30,764 nt of DNA from a virus (Duplodnaviria > Heunggongvirae > Uroviricota > Caudoviricetes), in IMG/VR virus record IMGVR_UViG_3300014893_000002, positions 1 to 30,764 of that record; one strand, written 5' to 3'. Below the pieces are notes generated by a model, which saw nothing but the letters and a program-made list of their open reading frames with translations, was not told the origin of the DNA and searched no databases. This document shows positions 17,442 to 30,564 of this stretch, one piece after another. The translations under genes and the position numbers were made by a program. Every line of letters starts with the position of its first letter. The stretch's first letter is position 1.

Positions 17442-17727
17442 GAAGGTTTTCTCGTATTGGTTAAGATTCAGGACGTGAAACCAACACGGAGGGAGCGCCG
17501 CCCGACACTCTCGGAATCTCGCAGATCAACCCGGCATCGCGCAGGGGGTCAGGCGGCATTGTGGCGGCTCACGTCTGAGTGCCACGCTCCAACATATACA
17601 TAAAAATCAGTATGTAAACACCTGTCAGTCAGACCGAACAACCACGAAAGAACACGAACAAATAATTTACAAAAGAAGTAAACCATGGCCTATTATTGCT
17701 GTCTCTGACTACAACAAAGGACGCATC

Positions 17728-18943: not shown

Positions 18944-19144
18944 ATGAGTGGTAAAATTTCTAATCCGTGTTCCGTGAATGGAGAAATATTGCCCATGCCC
19001 GATAAAAATAGCAACCCATCTGACTTTTCTGAAGATATGAAAGGATGCGTTACCTTTGAGTCAGAACGTTATGGACCATCAGGCGACTCATCAGATAACC
19101 GTTCTTCTCAGTCTGATGACGATGCACCGCCACCACGGGACTAA
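18944..19144 (+). CDS. small acidic Ser/Asp-rich hypothetical protein
   Basis: 66 aa ORF (possibly shorter from an internal Met) ending ..DSSDNRSSQSDDDAPPPRD; convergent with the membrane protein gene. Coding status uncertain. Confidence 0.25.
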   Translation: MSGKISNPCSVNGEILPMPDKNSNPSDFSEDMKGCVTFESERYGPSGDSSDNRSSQSDDDAPPPRD

Positions 19145-25149: not shown

Positions 25150-26919
25150 TCAGTTGCCGTTAACAATGCTGATAACGCTGCTGCGGGCCGGCGTGGTCAG
25201 CGTGGCCATGACTTCATCCAGTGCGGCTTCCGGTACGCCGTCCGGGTACTGTGCCGTTAACTGGCGGTAATGTTCCGGCGTCCAGGTAAGGCCGTCGGCG
25301 CTGAACTTATCGCGCAGGGCTTTCGCGGCCTCCACATGAGTCATGGGACGTTGTTCAGTGCGCGGCCCGCGTACGTCAGAGGCCTGACCACGCTTCGGCA
25401 TATAGGCCGGAAGTGTGGTGTCGTCGATATGTTTATACGGGTCAAGCCGCCCGCCGAACGGCAGCGCCTTCGCCTTGCGTGCGGCGGCTGCATCTGCAGC
25501 GTTGTCTGTACCGGTAACCAGCGCTTCAGTTTCTTTTGCCGCCATCTGTGCCGAGGTTTCCGGCAGGGCTTTGTAACTTTCGCCAAATACCGCCGCGCCT
25601 TCAGCAAAGCCAAACTCGTTCTTTCTGACCTCTTCGACCAGGAAGAACGTCTCGTGGCCGTCCTCACCGGTCAGAACCACCTGTGCCACATCGCTGCGCC
25701 ACGGGTTACGGGTAATCATCAGTTTTTCACCAACCAGTACGCCCGGTACCGTTGATACGTCAAATTCAGTGCCCCGGAACGAGACACGAAGTTTTGGCGT
25801 GACTTTGCGGAGTTCTGGTGCCGCCACAGCCAGTTCACGACATACCTCAACGGAAGGCGCTTTTTTCAGCTGCTCAGCAGTAATCTTCAGCCAGATATCC
25901 GTGCGGGTTTTACCGTGGCGGCTGTGAACAGCCGTGGCGTTAAAGTGGCTGCGCCATTTCGCGGCCAGCGCGTTGAGTTCTTCCAGACTGTGAACCGGCC
26001 GGAACTTCAGACCCGGCTCCAGCTTGCGTTCGATAATGTCCCGCGCCTTTTCCACCTGTCCGGTGGCGCGGGCGTTATGCGGCTTGTGCGCTATCAGGTC
26101 GATGCCCAGTGAGCGGCACATGTTTTTCGTCATACCCGCGGTGTTTGCCGAGCCGGGGTCGAGATAGAGTATTTTCGGCACACCGTGCAGCACGTCTGCG
26201 CCGCCACGCTCCTGCATGGCGTTGATAAGCACAGAACACAGGTTCTCACCTGATTCCGCGCCCGTCACATACTCAACGTAAATCCAGCCGCTGGCATGGT
26301 CGGTAATCTCGTAACTCCACACGCGGTCACTGGCGATACGGGCAAGGTTAGCGGGCTTGTTCTTGTAGAACTTCGCGCTGTCCATCACCTGCAGCCCTTT
26401 ATGTCCATTGCTCAGGTAGTAAAGCGTGCAGAGTGAGGCGTCAATCTGCCAGACATGATTGGGATGCAGACTGGCCACTTCGGTATGTGGTGCAGGGGCA
26501 TCCAGTTGTTCCGGGTGCAGGCCATAGTTACGCAGGGCACGACTGATGGCATCTTCGGACAACGGGAAAAACTCACCGGTGGTTTCATCTGTTCTGCCTG
26601 CGGTGATAAAGCCGTTAGCCCGCAGGGTTTCCACTGCATCTGCGATGGAATAGAGACGCTTACCGTTCTTGCGGGTGGCCTCACGCAGTGTGGCAGATAT
26701 CAGCGCGGCTTCGTCGCGGGTCAGGGCGCTGCGCCCGGCATCGGCGCGTTTTTTGCGTTTATCAGTCACAGATACCTCCTTCAGCCTGCGCAGCAGAGTG
26801 GCGCGGGACATGCCAAGTTCAGCACAGGCAGCGTCGTATATTGCACCGCGTTTACCATGCCCCGCGTCACGTGCCGCGCGGGCGACATAAACCAGTCGTT
26901 CAGTCAGGGCAGCATTCAT
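25150..26919 (-). CDS. DDE transposase (Mu A-like, rve/integrase core)
   Basis: 589 aa with an N-terminal HTH region and integrase-core motifs (..HVWQIDASL.., ..ILYLDPGSANTAG.., then an E-containing helix); paired with the AAA+ ATPase gene as in Mu A/B. Confidence 0.75.
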   Translation of the reverse strand: MNAALTERLVYVARAARDAGHGKRGAIYDAACAELGMSRATLLRRLKEVSVTDKRKKRADAGRSALTRDEAALISATLREATRKNGKRLYSIADAVETLRANGFITAGRTDETTGEFFPLSEDAISRALRNYGLHPEQLDAPAPHTEVASLHPNHVWQIDASLCTLYYLSNGHKGLQVMDSAKFYKNKPANLARIASDRVWSYEITDHASGWIYVEYVTGAESGENLCSVLINAMQERGGADVLHGVPKILYLDPGSANTAGMTKNMCRSLGIDLIAHKPHNARATGQVEKARDIIERKLEPGLKFRPVHSLEELNALAAKWRSHFNATAVHSRHGKTRTDIWLKITAEQLKKAPSVEVCRELAVAAPELRKVTPKLRVSFRGTEFDVSTVPGVLVGEKLMITRNPWRSDVAQVVLTGEDGHETFFLVEEVRKNEFGFAEGAAVFGESYKALPETSAQMAAKETEALVTGTDNAADAAAARKAKALPFGGRLDPYKHIDDTTLPAYMPKRGQASDVRGPRTEQRPMTHVEAAKALRDKFSADGLTWTPEHYRQLTAQYPDGVPEAALDEVMATLTTPARSSVISIVNGN

Positions 26920-26922
26920 TGG

Positions 26923-27837
26923 TTATGCCTCCAGCCCGTTAATCTGTGGCGTCGGCTCAGTCAGCCATGAAGGCGCTGCATTGCCTGTTGGCTCGTCCGG
27001 CAGGTCAAATGTGGAGCGCAGGCTACGCGCTGTGCTTTCCAGTTGACAGACCAGGCCTGCCATGAAGTCTCTGGGGGTATCAATCATGTTTTCAGCACAA
27101 TATGCGCACAGCGTCTCAAAAGCGCTGGACAGTCGGACGGCGATAGCAGATTCCGCCTCAACCGCTAATGCTGTTACTTCCGCCCGCAGCTTCTTAACCT
27201 CCTCATCAGGCTCAGGCGGCTGAATACGGGATTTCTTCTCCAGTCTGGTGGAGAGTGAATCTATTTTTTCATTTTTGTCGGCGAGTACGCGCTGTTGTGC
27301 TGCGTTGGTTTCGCGCGCTTCGCGCAGGGCCTGACGCAATTCACGTACTGACATGCGATCAACGTCGTCAAGCGTCAGGCCGGCAACTGTGCCGCCGTCG
27401 GCCAATTCATCAAGTTCTTCATTATCCAGAACCATCAGGTCGTACAGTTTGGCTTTCCCCAAAACGCTCAACGTTGAGCGTTTTGTTGGCTCATCACCTT
27501 CTCCCAAAAACTTCATACTGGCTTGCATCATGCGGCGAGCAACTTGTGGTGCAAGTCCGAGTTCATTTTCTAAAATGTTTGTAAAATCACCGTGTGGCTC
27601 ATTTTCTTTTAAGATGATCAGCCGCTTACCCGCTTCCAGCATAGATTCAGCACTCTGCGCCATATAAAAACGTGCTTCGTGAACAATGCGATCACGTTCA
27701 TAAGGCAGTCCATCACCAAACTGCTGCATAATTTCCATGCGATGCTGTGTCATAGCGTTCAAATTGACATTGATGTTATCTGACAGCGGAACCTCAACAT
27801 TCAGTTCAGTGTTAACGGGTGATTTGGTGCGTCCCAT
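26923..27837 (-). CDS. hypothetical protein (coiled-coil rich)
   Basis: 304 aa ORF with AAGGAG RBS lying between the Ner-like gene and the transposase; no confident family. Confidence 0.5.
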   Translation of the reverse strand: MGRTKSPVNTELNVEVPLSDNINVNLNAMTQHRMEIMQQFGDGLPYERDRIVHEARFYMAQSAESMLEAGKRLIILKENEPHGDFTNILENELGLAPQVARRMMQASMKFLGEGDEPTKRSTLSVLGKAKLYDLMVLDNEELDELADGGTVAGLTLDDVDRMSVRELRQALREARETNAAQQRVLADKNEKIDSLSTRLEKKSRIQPPEPDEEVKKLRAEVTALAVEAESAIAVRLSSAFETLCAYCAENMIDTPRDFMAGLVCQLESTARSLRSTFDLPDEPTGNAAPSWLTEPTPQINGLEA

Positions 27838-27847
27838 TGATTACTCC

Positions 27848-28156
27848 TTACAAACGACTACCTGAAATAACTCGTTGGTTGATTTCGTTAATACGATCCT
27901 GTGCACGCGCCATCTCGTGACTGTGAGCCATGGCGATCTGTAGTAACTGGATTCCCGGTGCGAAACGTCCGTTCTCTAATTTCATGGCCAGTCCCTCTTC
28001 AATAAGGGTATTAAGTGCTCGATTGATATTCGCCGGGGACTCCCCCAGGGCTGATGCCAGTTCACCGTTAGAAACACCGTTCAGAGCATGACCGCGTAGA
28101 GCTTTGAGTACACGTAGGATGCGGGTCCCAGAACTGGAAATATTTACTTTACTCAT
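27848..28156 (-). CDS. winged-helix DNA-binding protein (putative transcriptional regulator)
   Basis: About 102 aa from ATG 28156; ..GVSNGELASALGESPANINRALNTLIEEGLA.. is an HTH/winged-helix pattern. Confidence 0.45.
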   Translation of the reverse strand: MSKVNISSSGTRILRVLKALRGHALNGVSNGELASALGESPANINRALNTLIEEGLAMKLENGRFAPGIQLLQIAMAHSHEMARAQDRINEINQRVISGSRL

Positions 28157-28208
28157 GTCACATTTCCATTTTTGCAATATGTGATAACCTGTTGCATATG
28201 TGGAAAAT

Positions 28209-28397
28209 TTATGCCGCATTTGACGTGGGTTTTAATCCCAGTTTTACGGCAATTTCATGGGCTTTGCCGTAACGAGCTTTGGTCTGTCCATTGAGAACAC
28301 GATAGACCTCATTGCGGCTGTAGCCGTGTTCTTCGGCCCAGCGGGTAAACGTGATACCACGCTGACGGAAGAGATTTTTAACTTGTTCGGAAGTCAT
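28209..28397 (-). CDS. ner: Ner/Nlp-family DNA-binding protein (Mu Ner-like early regulator)
   Basis: 62 aa; ..LFRQRGITFTRWAEEHGYSRNEVYRVLNG..GKAHEIAVKLGLKP aligns with the Nlp/Ner pattern (..L..KG.S.A..SR..GLS.STLANAL.R..P.GE.IIA.ALG..P). AAGGAG RBS; first gene of the minus-strand early operon. Confidence 0.7.
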   Translation of the reverse strand: MTSEQVKNLFRQRGITFTRWAEEHGYSRNEVYRVLNGQTKARYGKAHEIAVKLGLKPTSNAA

Positions 28398-28448
28398 TGT
28401 TGTCTCCTTTGTTGATGCAATGATGTTTGTTTTATATGTGATAGATTA

Positions 28449-28466
28449 TGAGAACTATTGTTCTCA
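28449..28466. promoter_or_regulatory. candidate operator: perfect inverted repeat TGAGAAC-N4-GTTCTCA in the divergent promoter region
   Basis: Read directly from the sequence, between the divergent Ner-like and XRE-family genes. Confidence 0.5.
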
Positions 28467-28483
28467 TTGTCAATGAGGTTTGT

Positions 28484-28909
28484 GTGAATTTTGATTCTCT
28501 TTGCGCGTCGCGGTTCAAAGCTGAGCGTTCGCGGTTATCACTCAAGCAGGCTGAAGTAGCAGCCCTTTGTGGCGTTTCAAGAGAAATGTGGGGGAAATAT
28601 GAACGAGGGGTTGCTGTTCCCGGAGGTGAGTTACTTGCAGCCTTTGCAAGAATTGGGGCCAATGTACAGTTCATTCTTACCGGGGAGTCATCAGGTATAA
28701 CTTTATCACGTGATGAAATGGAGTTACTGCAGCACTACCGGCAGGCACCATTACAGGTCAAAGGTTCAGTTTTGTCGGCCTTGACTACTGGCTCCTCCAG
28801 AGAACGGGCGGAACAGGTTATTCATGGAGATGTTCTGGGGAATGTTATCAAAGGTAACGTAACCATAGGAACAGGTGGAATAATGAACAAAAATACCAAG
28901 AGAAGATGA
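28484..28909 (+). CDS. XRE-family HTH transcriptional regulator (candidate prophage repressor)
   Basis: HTH_XRE signature ..LSLKQAEVAALCGVSREMWGKYERGVAVPG..; divergent from the Ner-like gene, as for c versus ner in Mu. Start placed at GTG 28484 (GAGG RBS); the track ORF begins at ATG 28448. No LexA-like S24 peptidase domain seen. Confidence 0.7.
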   Translation: MNFDSLCASRFKAERSRLSLKQAEVAALCGVSREMWGKYERGVAVPGGELLAAFARIGANVQFILTGESSGITLSRDEMELLQHYRQAPLQVKGSVLSALTTGSSRERAEQVIHGDVLGNVIKGNVTIGTGGIMNKNTKRR

Positions 28910-29892
28910 GTAAAGAGAAGCAAACAGTTAACGGGGATGTGGGTAACGTTGTCAGCGGTGATGTTACCATTCATAACTATTCTGCTGACATACTTCCTTC
29001 GGCCCAGCAACCAATTTCGTTGCTGCAAAAACGCGATTTACACAGATTGATGGATGAATTGGTTGATCTGGGGGAAAGTAAGCGCGAGCTATGGATGACG
29101 ATCCACACGAAACTTAATACCAAAACAGTTAATGAAATGACTGCGGCTGATTATCATGGTGCGGTTGAGATCCTTCAGAGATATGCACAACAGATCCAGA
29201 ATATGAAGGACTGTAATCTTCTGGTCAGCAAAATAATGGCGCTTACTGACCCTGGGTATCGTCTTGACCGTGACAGATACTGTCTGAAGCATTTCGGTAC
29301 AACCCATCTTAAAGGCCTAGACAAAGAGCAGTTGCAGGCTGTGTTTGGTTATTTTGATGATCTGCTGAATATTCGTGATGAGAGTAAAACTCTATCACCT
29401 CCATCGGAAAGCGGTGCAAAATCAGTCGCAACTGTACCAACCAGAAGCCGGAAGCCTCATGTAGTAGTGTTGGGGGGAGTGTTAGTTCTTGTAGCAATAT
29501 TTTTCGTGGGAATGATTGTGTTCGCTGGTAAATGGGGAAATGCCAAAGCAGTAGCTTCTACTGAAACCAGCGTTTTTAACATTAAAACCAACGATAAAAT
29601 AATAGAAGATTCCATCCCCGCACTGCGCAGCATGTTTCCAGGGTTAAATAAGTACTCAGATGATTTCCATTCGGTTTCAAGCTACAAGCAAAAAACGGGC
29701 TGGCATACCCTTAAATTTACTGTATCAGCAAAGGCATCCGTCCCCGAAAATTATAGTGTTAAGGGCAAGGTTTGTTACATTAACATAAGCCCTGATGGTA
29801 GTTATGCTCGGGTTTTGACTGCTCCATGTCGTTCACTGCTACTTGATCAGCAAAGCACTCCTGACAGTAAATACCGTTTTATTCTTAAATAG
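28906..29892 (+). CDS. hypothetical single-pass membrane protein (repressor-linked cargo)
   Basis: 328 aa; ATG overlaps the XRE stop (ATGA); one central hydrophobic helix (..PHVVVLGGVLVLVAIFFVGMIVFAG..); AT-rich; no recognisable family. Confidence 0.6.
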   Translation: MSKEKQTVNGDVGNVVSGDVTIHNYSADILPSAQQPISLLQKRDLHRLMDELVDLGESKRELWMTIHTKLNTKTVNEMTAADYHGAVEILQRYAQQIQNMKDCNLLVSKIMALTDPGYRLDRDRYCLKHFGTTHLKGLDKEQLQAVFGYFDDLLNIRDESKTLSPPSESGAKSVATVPTRSRKPHVVVLGGVLVLVAIFFVGMIVFAGKWGNAKAVASTETSVFNIKTNDKIIEDSIPALRSMFPGLNKYSDDFHSVSSYKQKTGWHTLKFTVSAKASVPENYSVKGKVCYINISPDGSYARVLTAPCRSLLLDQQSTPDSKYRFILK

Positions 29893-29982
29893 AAAATAAC
29901 AGCTGAATTACCATGGGATCAGAAAAAAGACAAAGGCGGCATCATGCTGCGTTCTGAAATTTTAATGTAAAAGGTGATGAAC

Positions 29983-30564
29983 ATGGCAGGGATTCAGGTT
30001 ATCGCAGGAAGTTTTCCTAAAGGGTGGGCAAGCATGGGGTTCGGTACCATCGTGTTTGCCAAAAAACCAAAACAAGGCTTTCCTGAAAATATTGTATTAA
30101 ATCTGAAAGAAGAGCTTTTATCGATTGAACTTGCGGATAGTGAAGAGGAAAGCCGTATAGGTAAGGCGGCAGGCGCAGGTTTGCTTGGTGGATTAATCTT
30201 TGGTGGTGCAGGGTTGGTCATTGGAGGTTTGCTTGGTGCGGCGGACAAGACGAAAAAAACTATCACTTTTAAGGCAATGTTTACGGGAAATAGGTTACTT
30301 CTGGCTAAAACAGATTCAAAAACTTTTGTAAAACTTCAGTCAATTGCTGCTGATAATGCCCATAACGCATCTGTAATCAACATGAAGCAAACTAATAGGG
30401 GCGATGTTTCTTCTCGTAAACAACTAACAGAAAATCCACAGCAGCAAGACTTACCTGCGCCCGCTACAACAGTAAAAATGACTGCCAAAGATAAGTTAGA
30501 ATCGGCTCTTGGGCTGGGAATCATCGTTATAGCTGTTTGGGCAATAATACACTTCTTTTTTTAG
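29983..30564 (+). CDS. hypothetical glycine-zipper membrane protein (repressor-linked cargo)
   Basis: Start at ATG 29983 with AAGGTGA RBS; glycine-zipper segment ..AAGAGLLGGLIFGGAGLVIGGLLGAA.. and a C-terminal helix ..LGLGIIVIAVWAIIHFFF; followed by a terminator. Confidence 0.6.
   Translation: MAGIQVIAGSFPKGWASMGFGTIVFAKKPKQGFPENIVLNLKEELLSIELADSEEESRIGKAAGAGLLGGLIFGGAGLVIGGLLGAADKTKKTITFKAMFTGNRLLLAKTDSKTFVKLQSIAADNAHNASVINMKQTNRGDVSSRKQLTENPQQQDLPAPATTVKMTAKDKLESALGLGIIVIAVWAIIHFFF

What the first reader, a model, noticed from the sequence alone, without database searches (positions are those of the whole stretch)
28398..28483. Perfect 18 bp palindrome in the divergent promoter region
Seen in sequence: TGAGAAC-TATT-GTTCTCA at 28449-28466 lies in the roughly 90 bp between the divergently transcribed Ner-like and XRE genes, overlapping the probable leader of the XRE gene. 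This is the geometry expected for an operator of a dimeric HTH protein controlling the lysogeny/lysis switch.
Basis: partly seen in the sequence, partly recalled or inferred. Interest (0 to 1): 0.4.

Follow-up and report, generated by a model that had tools for sequence, protein, structure and literature searches.

The report
Prophage repressor operator inside early promoter
The palindrome is almost certainly the main DNA site where this Mu-like (BcepMu-type) E. coli prophage's own repressor binds, inside the promoter of the transposition genes, to keep the virus silent; this is an ordinary kind of genetic switch, but the comparative evidence for it is unusually clear.

Summary
TGAGAAC-TATT-GTTCTCA is at 28449-28466 as reported. 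It has perfect 7-bp arms (8 bp counting 28448/28467) around a non-symmetric centre. Alone it is not beyond chance in 30 kb. Position and conservation make it real.

It fills the 17-bp spacer of a near-consensus minus-strand promoter (TTGACA-17-CATAAT) that faces the Ner-like gene and the transposase.

In 46 diverged relatives (repressor 36-75% identical; Gamma- and Betaproteobacteria), TGAGAAC-N4-GTTCTC and both promoter hexamers sit in the same register, while the flanks are not conserved.

The motif tracks the XRE repressor's recognition helix (SREMWGKYERG). Three other immunity types in E. coli/enterobacterial relatives carry different helices and different palindromes in the same slot, although the Ner-like protein is 81-87% identical to the window's and identical in two of those types.

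A weaker second site, O2 (28483-28500), lies 34 bp to the right and overlaps the repressor's GTG start. It is conserved at the DNA level.

Verdict: this is the primary operator of a P22-C2/434-like repressor that blocks the early promoter. It is a new, uncharacterised member of a known kind. No binding or transcript data exist, and the repressor's own promoter is unresolved.

The parts
28449..28466 (.). O1, the primary operator: TGAGAAC-TATT-GTTCTCA (8-bp arms if 28448/28467 are included).
   Evidence: Searches show the sequence. It is the top PWM hit at 28.4 bits. It is conserved with at most 3 arm mismatches in 46 diverged loci, 33-36 bp (most often) before the repressor start. Positions 2, 5 and 6 of each half-site are invariant in 46/46 loci, and the centre is 96% A/T.
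28483..28500 (.). O2, a weaker second operator: TGTGAAT-TTTG-ATTCTCT. It overlaps the GTG start codon (28484) and codons 2-6 of the repressor gene, with its centre 34 bp from the centre of O1.
   Evidence: It is the second-best PWM hit at 12.9 bits, with 0.06 such hits expected per window. An equivalent site lies 32-35 bp from O1 in 44/46 loci. Codon 4 ends in T in 37/38 loci across 7 different amino acids, and Ser5 is TCT in 28 of 31 Ser codons.
28468..28473 (-). -35 hexamer TTGACA of the leftward early promoter (Pe).
   Evidence: The promoter scan matches 11/12 positions. The hexamer is an exact TTGACA in 36/46 diverged loci and at least 5/6 in 44.
28445..28450 (-). -10 hexamer CATAAT of Pe. 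Its first two bases are the outermost bases of O1.
   Evidence: Found. It reads CATAAT in 35/46 loci, and the spacer is 17 bp in 42/46. ATTA is almost invariant in the stacked alignment.
28484..28909 (+). Repressor gene: a 141-aa protein with an XRE/HTH_3 N-terminal domain (recognition helix SREMWGKYERG, residues 32-42) and a C-terminal domain with no family match.
   Evidence: Pfam HTH_31 and HTH_3 pass their cut-offs. The nearest solved structure is the P22 C2 N-domain, E 9e-5. Relatives align from residue 1 of the GTG-started protein. The recognition helix covaries with the operator.
28475..28478 (+). Shine-Dalgarno GAGG of the repressor gene, 5 nt before the GTG.
   Evidence: Read directly. 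AAGG(G/A)G follows the -35 hexamer in the family consensus.
28209..28397 (-). First early gene: a Ner-like small HTH protein of the BcepMu gp16 family, transcribed from Pe.
   Evidence: NCBIfam TIGR04111 scores 94.4 bits against a cut-off of 34. PHROG 925 matches at 1e-32. The protein is 81-87% identical across the four immunity types.
28398..28448 (-). Conserved leader of the early transcript. It contains the GGAGA ribosome-binding site (28403-28407), the inferred Pe start near 28437-28439, and the probable binding region for the conserved Ner-like protein.
   Evidence: It is 92-94% identical among immunity types, against 81.5% for the adjacent Ner-like CDS. In alignment A1, 51 of the 55 columns from the Ner-like start codon (28395) to 28449 are invariant, and identity collapses at the palindrome.
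28439..28447 (+). Weak candidate for the repressor promoter: an extended -10, TGaTAGATT. The transcript would start inside O1.
   Evidence: Found. It is present in the window and 7/46 relatives at -12..-3, where about 0.4 are expected. It is not general for the family, and no -35 was found. This is inference only.

Best explanation
O1 (28449-28466) is the high-affinity operator of the prophage's own 141-aa XRE-type repressor (gene 28484-28909). A repressor dimer places one helix-turn-helix on each GAGAAC half-site across an A/T-rich centre that is probably not contacted. This is the 18-bp, 7+4+7 geometry known for the P22 C2 repressor. O1 occupies the whole 17-bp spacer and the first two bases of the -10 of the leftward early promoter (TTGACA 28473-28468, CATAAT 28450-28445). 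Bound repressor therefore excludes RNA polymerase and silences the operon: Ner-like gene, IclR-like gene, DUF3102 gene, transposase, and the ATPase downstream of it. That maintains lysogeny and gives immunity to superinfection. A weaker site, O2 (28483-28500), lies 34 bp (about three helical turns) to the right and overlaps the repressor's GTG start codon. It probably stabilises binding cooperatively and/or limits repressor synthesis. What is shown: the sequence, the promoter consensus, the conservation, and the covariation between protein and site. What is inferred: binding itself, dimer stoichiometry, cooperativity, autoregulation and the transcription start points.
For: (1) Geometry. The only sigma-70-like promoter in 28100-28700 is on the minus strand, matches 11/12, and has O1 as its spacer. 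(2) Conservation. In 46 non-redundant diverged loci (repressor 36-75% identical; Serratia, Orbaceae, Neisseria, Actinobacillus, Glaesserella, Francisella, Azonexus, Burkholderiaceae and others), TGAGAAC-N4-GTTCTC has 0-3 arm mismatches. TTGACA is exact in 36 loci, CATAAT in 35, and the spacer is 17 bp in 42, while the flanks carry no information. (3) Covariation with the repressor. Every locus with the motif has the helix (V/I)[S/T]REMWGKYER. Loci with VRREMWGKYE have xGAG(C/T)A-type half-sites. The type with KRETWSRYESG has TGTGAT-N6-ATCACA, although its C-terminal domain is 88% identical to the window's. Types B and C have other helices, and have TGCTCATAATTATGAGCA or GTGCAGATTACCTCAC in the same slot. 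(4) Not the Ner-like protein. WP_000123378.1 is identical in types B and C, and some loci with the motif have a non-Ner divergent gene. (5) Association. Of 24 exact TGAGAACN4GTTCTCNNTGTCAA matches in IMG/VR, all 23 testable ones lie directly upstream of a repressor of this family. (6) The mosaic junction falls exactly at the palindrome. (7) The conservation profile matches P22 C2 contacts. Positions 2-7 and 12-17 are conserved, and positions 1/18 and the central 4 bp are variable with a 96% A/T centre. For P22, PMC4267663 reports an 18-bp site with a non-contacted central 4 bp that prefers A/T. (8) The N-domain is closest to P22 C2 and the 434 repressor among solved structures.
Against: There is no binding, footprint or transcript-start evidence; everything rests on comparative sequence analysis. 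The palindrome alone is at chance level for a 30-kb window. No conserved sigma-70 promoter for the repressor gene was found on the plus strand, so the autoregulatory part of the model is open. O2 lies in coding sequence, so some of its conservation could come from the protein. The third-position and Ser-codon pattern argues against that but does not exclude it. The O1-O2 spacing of 32-35 bp is not an exact multiple of the helical repeat. Related loci share ancestry, so locus counts are not independent events.
Confidence: 0.9

Rival explanations
1. The palindrome is the operator of the Ner-like (BcepMu gp16) protein, or of the downstream IclR-like winged-helix protein. It would act as a Cro-like site shared with or separate from the repressor.
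For: The site lies next to the Ner-like gene. In lambdoid phages Cro and repressor share operators. Both candidate proteins carry HTH domains.
Against: The Ner-like protein is identical (WP_000123378.1) in immunity types B and C, whose palindromes are unrelated, and 81-87% identical to the window's across all types. The IclR-like protein is 91-92% identical in E. coli types B and C and the closest type D relative (L038). Loci L044, L045, L080, L084 and L087 keep O1 and the repressor but have an unrelated divergent gene. The motif tracks the XRE recognition helix instead.
Confidence: 0.03
2. The inverted repeat acts as an RNA hairpin in the 5' leader of the repressor mRNA, affecting stability, translation or attenuation, rather than as a protein-binding DNA site.
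For: If transcribed, it folds into an 8-bp stem with a 4-nt loop. The 61-nt region has an MFE of -14.7 kcal/mol and a z-score of -2.06.
Against: Conservation is of base identity, not of pairing. Across 46 loci there are only 2 compensatory pair changes against 53 broken pairs, and three pairs are invariant. O2 repeats the same half-site sequence with poor self-complementarity. No U-tract follows and no terminator was called. No Rfam family matches. The other immunity types replace the sequence together with the repressor's DNA-binding helix.
Confidence: 0.03
3. The palindrome is a site for a host factor, for example a global regulator or a LexA-like protein. Its GAAC-N4-GTTC core resembles the Gram-positive SOS box (from memory).
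For: There is a formal resemblance of the core to the GAAC-N4-GTTC boxes of Gram-positive LexA (recalled, not tested). The site overlaps a promoter.
Against: Within the same host species (E. coli), sister prophages carry three other palindromes in the same slot, each with a different phage repressor. The motif is kept across hosts from Pasteurellaceae to Burkholderiaceae only where the phage repressor helix is kept. E. coli LexA recognises CTG-N10-CAG (established knowledge), which is absent here.
Confidence: 0.02
4. It is a chance inverted repeat with no function.
For: The window contains about as many 8-bp-arm inverted repeats as Markov simulations predict.
Against: The site is conserved in register in 46 diverged loci, with about 5e-4 chance matches expected per locus. 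It scores 28.4 bits against a null maximum of 18.4. It covaries with the repressor helix.
Confidence: 0.01

Closest known systems
Bacteriophage P22 C2 repressor and its 18-bp operators (also 434 repressor/operators)
   Same: The N-terminal HTH_3 domain is the closest match among solved structures (1adr, E 9e-5; 434 repressor, E 0.02). The site is 18 bp and rotationally symmetric. The outer positions 2-7 and 12-17 are conserved, and the central four base pairs are variable but A/T-rich, matching the contacted and non-contacted pattern described for P22R (PMC4267663). There are several operators of graded quality, and the primary operator overlaps the lytic promoter.
   Different: The half-site sequence differs: GAGAAC here, against P22's TTAAG-type (P22 sequence from memory). 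No S24 peptidase/LexA-like C-terminal domain was detected. The antagonist gene product (Ner-like) does not share the operator. Operator centres are 32-35 bp apart rather than adjacent. O2 lies on the repressor's own start codon. The element is a transposable (Mu-like) phage, not a lambdoid one.
Bacteriophage Mu immunity region (c repressor, O1-O3, Pe/Pc, Ner)
   Same: The gene order and logic are the same: the repressor is transcribed divergently from an early operon that begins with a small Ner-type regulator and continues to the transposase; the repressor operator overlaps Pe; and the Ner-type protein apparently uses a separate site. The Mu details are from established knowledge.
   Different: The repressor here is an XRE/HTH_3 protein. 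No Mu-type (MuA-like winged-helix) repressor domain was detected in Pfam. The operators are simple palindromes rather than Mu's extended O1-O3 arrays with an IHF site. The Ner-like protein belongs to the BcepMu gp16 family and gave no hit to a Mu Ner family in Pfam.
BcepMu / B3-like transposable phages (Bcepmuvirus; e.g. Escherichia phage PhiKM)
   Same: The early region is the same: transposase 99% identical, IclR-like protein 92%, Ner-like protein 87%. The leader is the same, and the operator slot between the -10 and -35 of the early promoter is the same.
   Different: PhiKM carries a different immunity cassette: the palindrome TGCTCATAATTATGAGCA and a repressor only 35% identical. I found no published operator or repressor analysis for this phage group.

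Membership tests
Operator of a P22 C2/434-type (XRE, HTH_3) phage repressor | A rotationally symmetric site of about 14-18 bp made of two half-sites | tested here: met
   The site has perfect 7-bp arms, a 4-bp centre and an 18-bp span. The family consensus TGAGAACTATAGTTCTCA is fully symmetric.
Operator of a P22 C2/434-type (XRE, HTH_3) phage repressor | An adjacent gene encodes an HTH_3-family protein related to C2/434 N-domains | tested here: met
   HTH_31 scores 30.7 bits (cut-off 27) and HTH_3 23.2 (cut-off 23). P22 C2 matches at E 9e-5 and 434 repressor at E 0.02.
Operator of a P22 C2/434-type (XRE, HTH_3) phage repressor | Outer positions conserved (contacted) and central bases variable but A/T-rich (non-contacted, indirect readout) | tested here: met
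   Pairs 2/17, 5/14 and 6/13 are invariant in 46/46 loci. The spacer takes 15 different sequences and is 96% A/T. The P22 pattern is taken from PMC4267663.
Operator of a P22 C2/434-type (XRE, HTH_3) phage repressor | Site specificity covaries with the recognition helix | tested here: met
   Helix SREMWGKYERG goes with GAGAAC, VRREMWGKYE with GAG(C/T)A, and KRETWSRYESG with TGTGAT. Types B and C differ in both helix and site.
Operator of a P22 C2/434-type (XRE, HTH_3) phage repressor | The site overlaps the core promoter of the lytic/early operon | tested here: met
   This is met by promoter consensus (11/12) and by conservation of both hexamers and the 17-bp spacer. The transcription start is not mapped.
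Operator of a P22 C2/434-type (XRE, HTH_3) phage repressor | Direct, sequence-specific binding by a repressor dimer | not testable with these tools
   This needs EMSA or footprinting with purified protein.
Lambdoid bistable switch (CI/C2 and Cro compete for the same operators; RecA-stimulated S24 autocleavage) | The antagonist (Cro-like) protein recognises the same operators | tested here: not met
   The Ner-like protein is identical in immunity types B and C, which have unrelated palindromes.
Lambdoid bistable switch (CI/C2 and Cro compete for the same operators; RecA-stimulated S24 autocleavage) | The repressor has a C-terminal S24 peptidase domain | tested here: not met
   Pfam finds only HTH_31 and HTH_3 in the 141-aa protein. 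NCBIfam gives no specific family above its cut-off.
Mu-type c repressor/operator system | A repressor with the Mu c/MuA-type DNA-binding domain, binding extended operator arrays | tested here: not met
   The repressor is HTH_3-type with no Mu-type domain hit. The operators are two discrete 18-bp sites.
Intrinsic terminator / structured RNA leader | A G+C-rich stem followed by a U-tract, or base pairs maintained by compensatory change | tested here: not met
   No terminators were called. There are 2 compensatory against 53 broken pairs. There is no Rfam hit.

The most novel reading that the evidence does not exclude
The immunity determinant of BcepMu-like transposable phages may be a compact, exchangeable cassette. 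Its left junction would be the -10 hexamer of the early promoter, so the repressor's DNA-binding domain and both operators are swapped together while the promoter hexamers, leader and Ner-like gene stay constant. Within the cassette, the second operator is written into the repressor's own first six codons. That would force codon choice (third base of codon 4, Ser5 = TCT) and favour a GTG start codon (24 of 38 relatives), and it would provide autoregulation at the translation start. Neither feature appears to have been described for this phage group.
Probability: 0.45. Interest if true: 0.45.

Novelty: new member of a known kind. Interest (0 to 1): 0.35.

Why it matters
The result gives a concrete, testable operator/repressor pair for a prophage family found in about 10% of complete E. 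coli genomes (573 of 5,426; 126 with this immunity type). Relatives occur in Pasteurellaceae, Neisseria, Serratia and Betaproteobacteria. It defines at least four hetero-immunity types by sequence and corrects the annotated repressor start codon. It also provides a natural series linking recognition-helix changes to half-site changes (Ser32 to Arg with A5 to C/T; KRETWSRY with TGTGAT), which could be used to study or engineer HTH specificity. Conceptually it is a standard repressor-on-promoter switch, so the gain is annotation and experimental tractability, not a new mechanism.

Tried and rejected
The PWM scan finds nothing near 17442-17727 or just upstream of 19785. The hit at 19093-19110 (7.2 bits) is within the null range.
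- **A third site at 26231-26248 in the transposase gene (11.3 bits).** The same sequence is present in phages of immunity types B and C, so it is not immunity-specific and is probably chance or coding.
- **The TGAGAAC half-site at 28292 inside the Ner-like gene.** It is likewise present in other immunity types, so it reflects coding conservation.
- **A conserved sigma-70 or extended -10 promoter for the repressor gene on the plus strand.** No position is shared across the family. Only a weak TGaTAGATT is present in the enterobacterial subgroup.
- **RNA family and RNA structure readings.** There is no Rfam match, and the pair counts argue against a structural RNA.
- **Literature searches for a published operator of BcepMu/B3/SuMu/PluMu-type repressors, or for the motif itself.** Nothing relevant was found in the searchable library. 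This is not proof of absence, because subscription journals are largely missing.
- **A LexA-box reading.** The GAAC-N4-GTTC core resembles Gram-positive SOS boxes (from memory). I rejected it because the motif changes with the phage repressor within one host species.

Full report
**Observation**

The sequence TGAGAAC TATT GTTCTCA is at 28449-28466, exactly as reported. The arms are perfect 7-mers, and A28448/T28467 extend them to 8 bp. The central TATT is not self-complementary, so "perfect 18-bp palindrome" is slightly overstated. A 99%-identical E. coli variant and many relatives carry TATA there, which is fully symmetric.

The site lies in the 86-bp gap between a 62-aa Ner-like gene (28209-28397, minus strand) and an XRE-type gene on the plus strand.

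Taken alone, the repeat is unremarkable. The window has 6 distinct places with perfect arms of at least 8 bp and spacers of 0-10. Markov simulations give 5.4 +/- 2.8 instances, and the comparable real count is 11, six of them nested in one 26-bp palindrome. Its significance has to come from position and conservation.

**Context**

The window is a BcepMu/B3-like transposable (Mu-like) prophage of E. coli.

- Leftward from the gap lie the Ner-like gene (BcepMu gp16 family, TIGR04111, 94 bits), an IclR-like winged-helix gene, a DUF3102 gene and a 589-aa DDE transposase, followed by an ExeA-family ATPase in an identical E. coli copy.
- Rightward lies a 141-aa XRE protein. HTH_31 and HTH_3 pass their cut-offs.
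- The XRE N-domain is closest, among solved structures, to the P22 C2 repressor (E 9e-5) and the 434 repressor.
- 573 of 5,426 complete E. coli genomes match 28100-29000. Only 126 match across the whole stretch. The other 446 match only up to 28449-28450, so homology stops at the palindrome.

**Promoter geometry**

The only sigma-70-like promoter found in 28100-28700 is on the minus strand. It reads TTGACA (28473-28468), a 17-bp spacer, then CATAAT (28450-28445), matching 11 of 12 positions.

O1 is that spacer plus the first two bases of the -10. A protein bound there would exclude RNA polymerase from the promoter facing the Ner-like gene and the transposase.

I found no conserved plus-strand promoter. 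The only candidate is a weak extended -10 (TGaTAGATT, 28439-28447), and it is limited to the enterobacterial subgroup.

**Conservation**

I searched for relatives of the XRE protein in GTDB genomes and IMG/VR. After removing duplicates and near-identical E. coli copies, 46 loci with repressors 36-75% identical remained. They come from Serratia, Orbaceae, Microbulbifer, Azonexus, Neisseria, Francisella, Actinobacillus, Glaesserella, Burkholderiaceae and others.

Results across these 46 loci:

- All carry TGAGAAC-N4-GTTCTC with 0-3 arm mismatches, most often 33-36 bp before the repressor start.
- The stacked alignment gives the consensus ATTA-TGAGAAC-tatA-GTTCTCa-TTGTCAAGG. Information content outside this block is essentially zero.
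- The minus-strand -35 is an exact TTGACA in 36 loci, the -10 is CATAAT in 35, and the spacer is 17 bp in 42.
- A PWM built only from these loci scores the window's site at 28.4 bits. The null maximum is 6.7 +/- 3.4, and the largest null value is 18.4.

**Which protein binds**

The motif tracks the XRE recognition helix.

| Recognition helix | Loci | Site found in the same slot |
|---|---|---|
| (V/I)[S/T]REMWGKYER | every locus with the motif | TGAGAAC-N4-GTTCTC |
| VRREMWGKYE | four loci | xGAG(C/T)A-type half-sites |
| KRETWSRYESG | Serratia sp. (L006) and unnamed IMG/VR relatives (type D) | TGTGAT-N6-ATCACA |
| a different helix | E. coli type B (PhiKM-like) | TGCTCATAATTATGAGCA |
| a different helix | E. 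coli type C | GTGCAGATTACCTCAC |

- The type D repressor is 88% identical to the window's in the C-terminal half but only 54% in the N-terminal half.
- In types B and C the palindrome again sits between ATTA and TCAA.
- The Ner-like protein is the same accession (WP_000123378.1) in types B and C, and 81-87% identical to the window's across all types.
- The IclR-like protein is 91-92% identical in E. coli types B and C and the closest type D relative (L038).
- Several loci keep the motif and the repressor but have an unrelated divergent gene.
- Of 24 exact matches to TGAGAACN4GTTCTCNNTGTCAA in IMG/VR, all 23 that could be tested lie directly upstream of a repressor of this family.

The palindrome therefore belongs to the XRE repressor, not to the Ner-like or IclR-like proteins.

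**Second operator (O2)**

The second-best PWM hit in the window is TGTGAAT-TTTG-ATTCTCT at 28483-28500. It scores 12.9 bits, with 0.06 such hits expected per window. Its centre is 34 bp from that of O1, and it overlaps the GTG at 28484.

- An equivalent site lies 32-35 bp from O1 in 44 of 46 loci.
- It sits in the first six codons of the repressor gene, yet the constraint is on the DNA. Codon 4 encodes seven different amino acids but ends in T in 37 of 38 loci. Ser5 is TCT in 28 of 31 Ser codons. The start codon is GTG in 24 of 38 loci, which improves the match to the half-site.
- O2 is always weaker than O1: 2-6 arm mismatches where a site is recognisable, against 0-3.
- Types B, C and D also have a second, weaker copy of their own operator about 30-33 bp to the right, at or overlapping the repressor start (sequences, read by eye).
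- Four relatives also have a third site 32-34 bp to the left of O1.

**Start codon**

PGAP starts the XRE gene at ATG 28448, inside O1. That ATG is a by-product of the conserved ATTATGAGAAC. Because the O1-O2 distance varies between 32 and 35 bp, this ATG is out of frame in most relatives.

Relatives align from residue 1 of the GTG-started protein, and a GAGG ribosome-binding site lies 5 nt upstream of the GTG. GTG 28484 is the likely start.

**Mechanism**

Positions 2-7 and 12-17 are conserved, with three base pairs invariant in 46/46 loci. Positions 1/18 and the central four base pairs vary, but the centre is 96% A/T. This matches the P22 repressor. Its dimer binds an 18-bp symmetric site, contacts positions 2-7 and 12-17, leaves the central four unread, and prefers A/T there (PMC4267663).

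I infer the following, none of which is tested:

- A repressor dimer on O1 blocks the early promoter.
- O2 assists cooperatively and/or throttles repressor synthesis.

**Rivals**

- **RNA hairpin.** It is disfavoured. The fold is only modestly stable (z = -2.06). Pairs are conserved by identity, with 2 compensatory against 53 broken changes. No U-tract or terminator is present, and no Rfam family matches.
- **Host factor.** It is disfavoured because sister prophages in the same species carry different palindromes in the same slot.
- **Chance.** It is excluded by the conservation.

**Comparison with known systems**

The element works like a P22 C2/434-type operator placed in a Mu-like genome layout.

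- It differs from lambdoid switches in three ways. The antagonist does not share the operator. No S24 peptidase domain is present. The operators are about three helical turns apart, and one sits on the start codon.
- It is not a Mu-type c/operator system.
- I found no published analysis of this operator.

**Verdict**

This is a new, well-supported member of a known kind, and its interest is modest.

Noticed in passing
window 27460-27485 (inside the DUF3102 gene, 26923-27837, minus strand): A perfect 26-bp palindrome, CAAAACGCTCAACGTTGAGCGTTTTG, about 5e-4 expected per window. Relatives keep a palindrome or stem-loop at the same place with different sequence. L001/L002 have two compensating changes. 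L003/L004 have AAAAGCGACAACGTTGTCGCTTTT, nine changes and still perfect. L043 has AAAACTGCTGAC-C-GTCAGCAGTTTT (12-bp arms around one central C). The A4-stem-T4 shape suggests a conserved hairpin (attenuator or bidirectional terminator) or a protein site inside the early operon. The simple terminator scan did not call it.
   Followed up: partly
window 28177-28186 and 28434-28443; imperfect inverted repeat 28163-28206: An exact 10-nt repeat, ATATGTGATA, occurs once just left of O1 near the inferred Pe start, and once in the 52-bp gap between the Ner-like and IclR-like genes. That gap also holds a 20-nt imperfect inverted repeat. Both copies lie in sequence conserved across immunity types, and PhiKM has near-identical copies. 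They are candidate sites for the conserved Ner-like or IclR-like protein.
   Followed up: partly
window 28398-28448: The early-transcript leader is more conserved among the four immunity types (92-94% identity) than the adjacent Ner-like coding sequence (81.5%). This implies regulatory constraint beyond the ribosome-binding site.
   Followed up: partly
window 28448 vs 28484: RefSeq/PGAP annotates the repressor from ATG 28448 (WP_001571568.1, 153 aa), which lies inside the operator. Comparative evidence favours GTG 28484 (141 aa). In immunity type C, PGAP extends the repressor ORF even into the Ner-like gene (L003 2778-3236).
   Followed up: yes
window 26231-26248 (transposase gene): ACAGAACACAGGTTCTCA resembles the operator (11.3 bits, the third-best hit). 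It is identical in phages with other immunity types, so it is probably coincidental or coding-driven.
   Followed up: yes
loci L010, L054, L056, L058 (32-34 bp left of O1): Some Betaproteobacterial and metagenomic relatives carry a third operator-like site, for example TGAGAATTTAAGTTCGTT, at the same roughly 34-bp spacing to the left of O1. The window has none.
   Followed up: no
loci L026, L027, L028, L078 vs the rest: A Ser-to-Arg change at the first residue of the recognition helix (VSREMWGKYE to VRREMWGKYE) coincides with half-sites of the type GAG(C/T)A instead of GAGAAC. This may be a single-residue specificity switch.
   Followed up: partly
window 28906-29892 and 29974-30564: A 328-aa gene overlaps the repressor stop codon (ATGA at 28906-28909). 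A 196-aa gene follows. Both have no functional annotation (PHROG families of unknown function). The 328-aa protein co-occurs with the repressor in immunity types A and D (59-100% identical).
   Followed up: no
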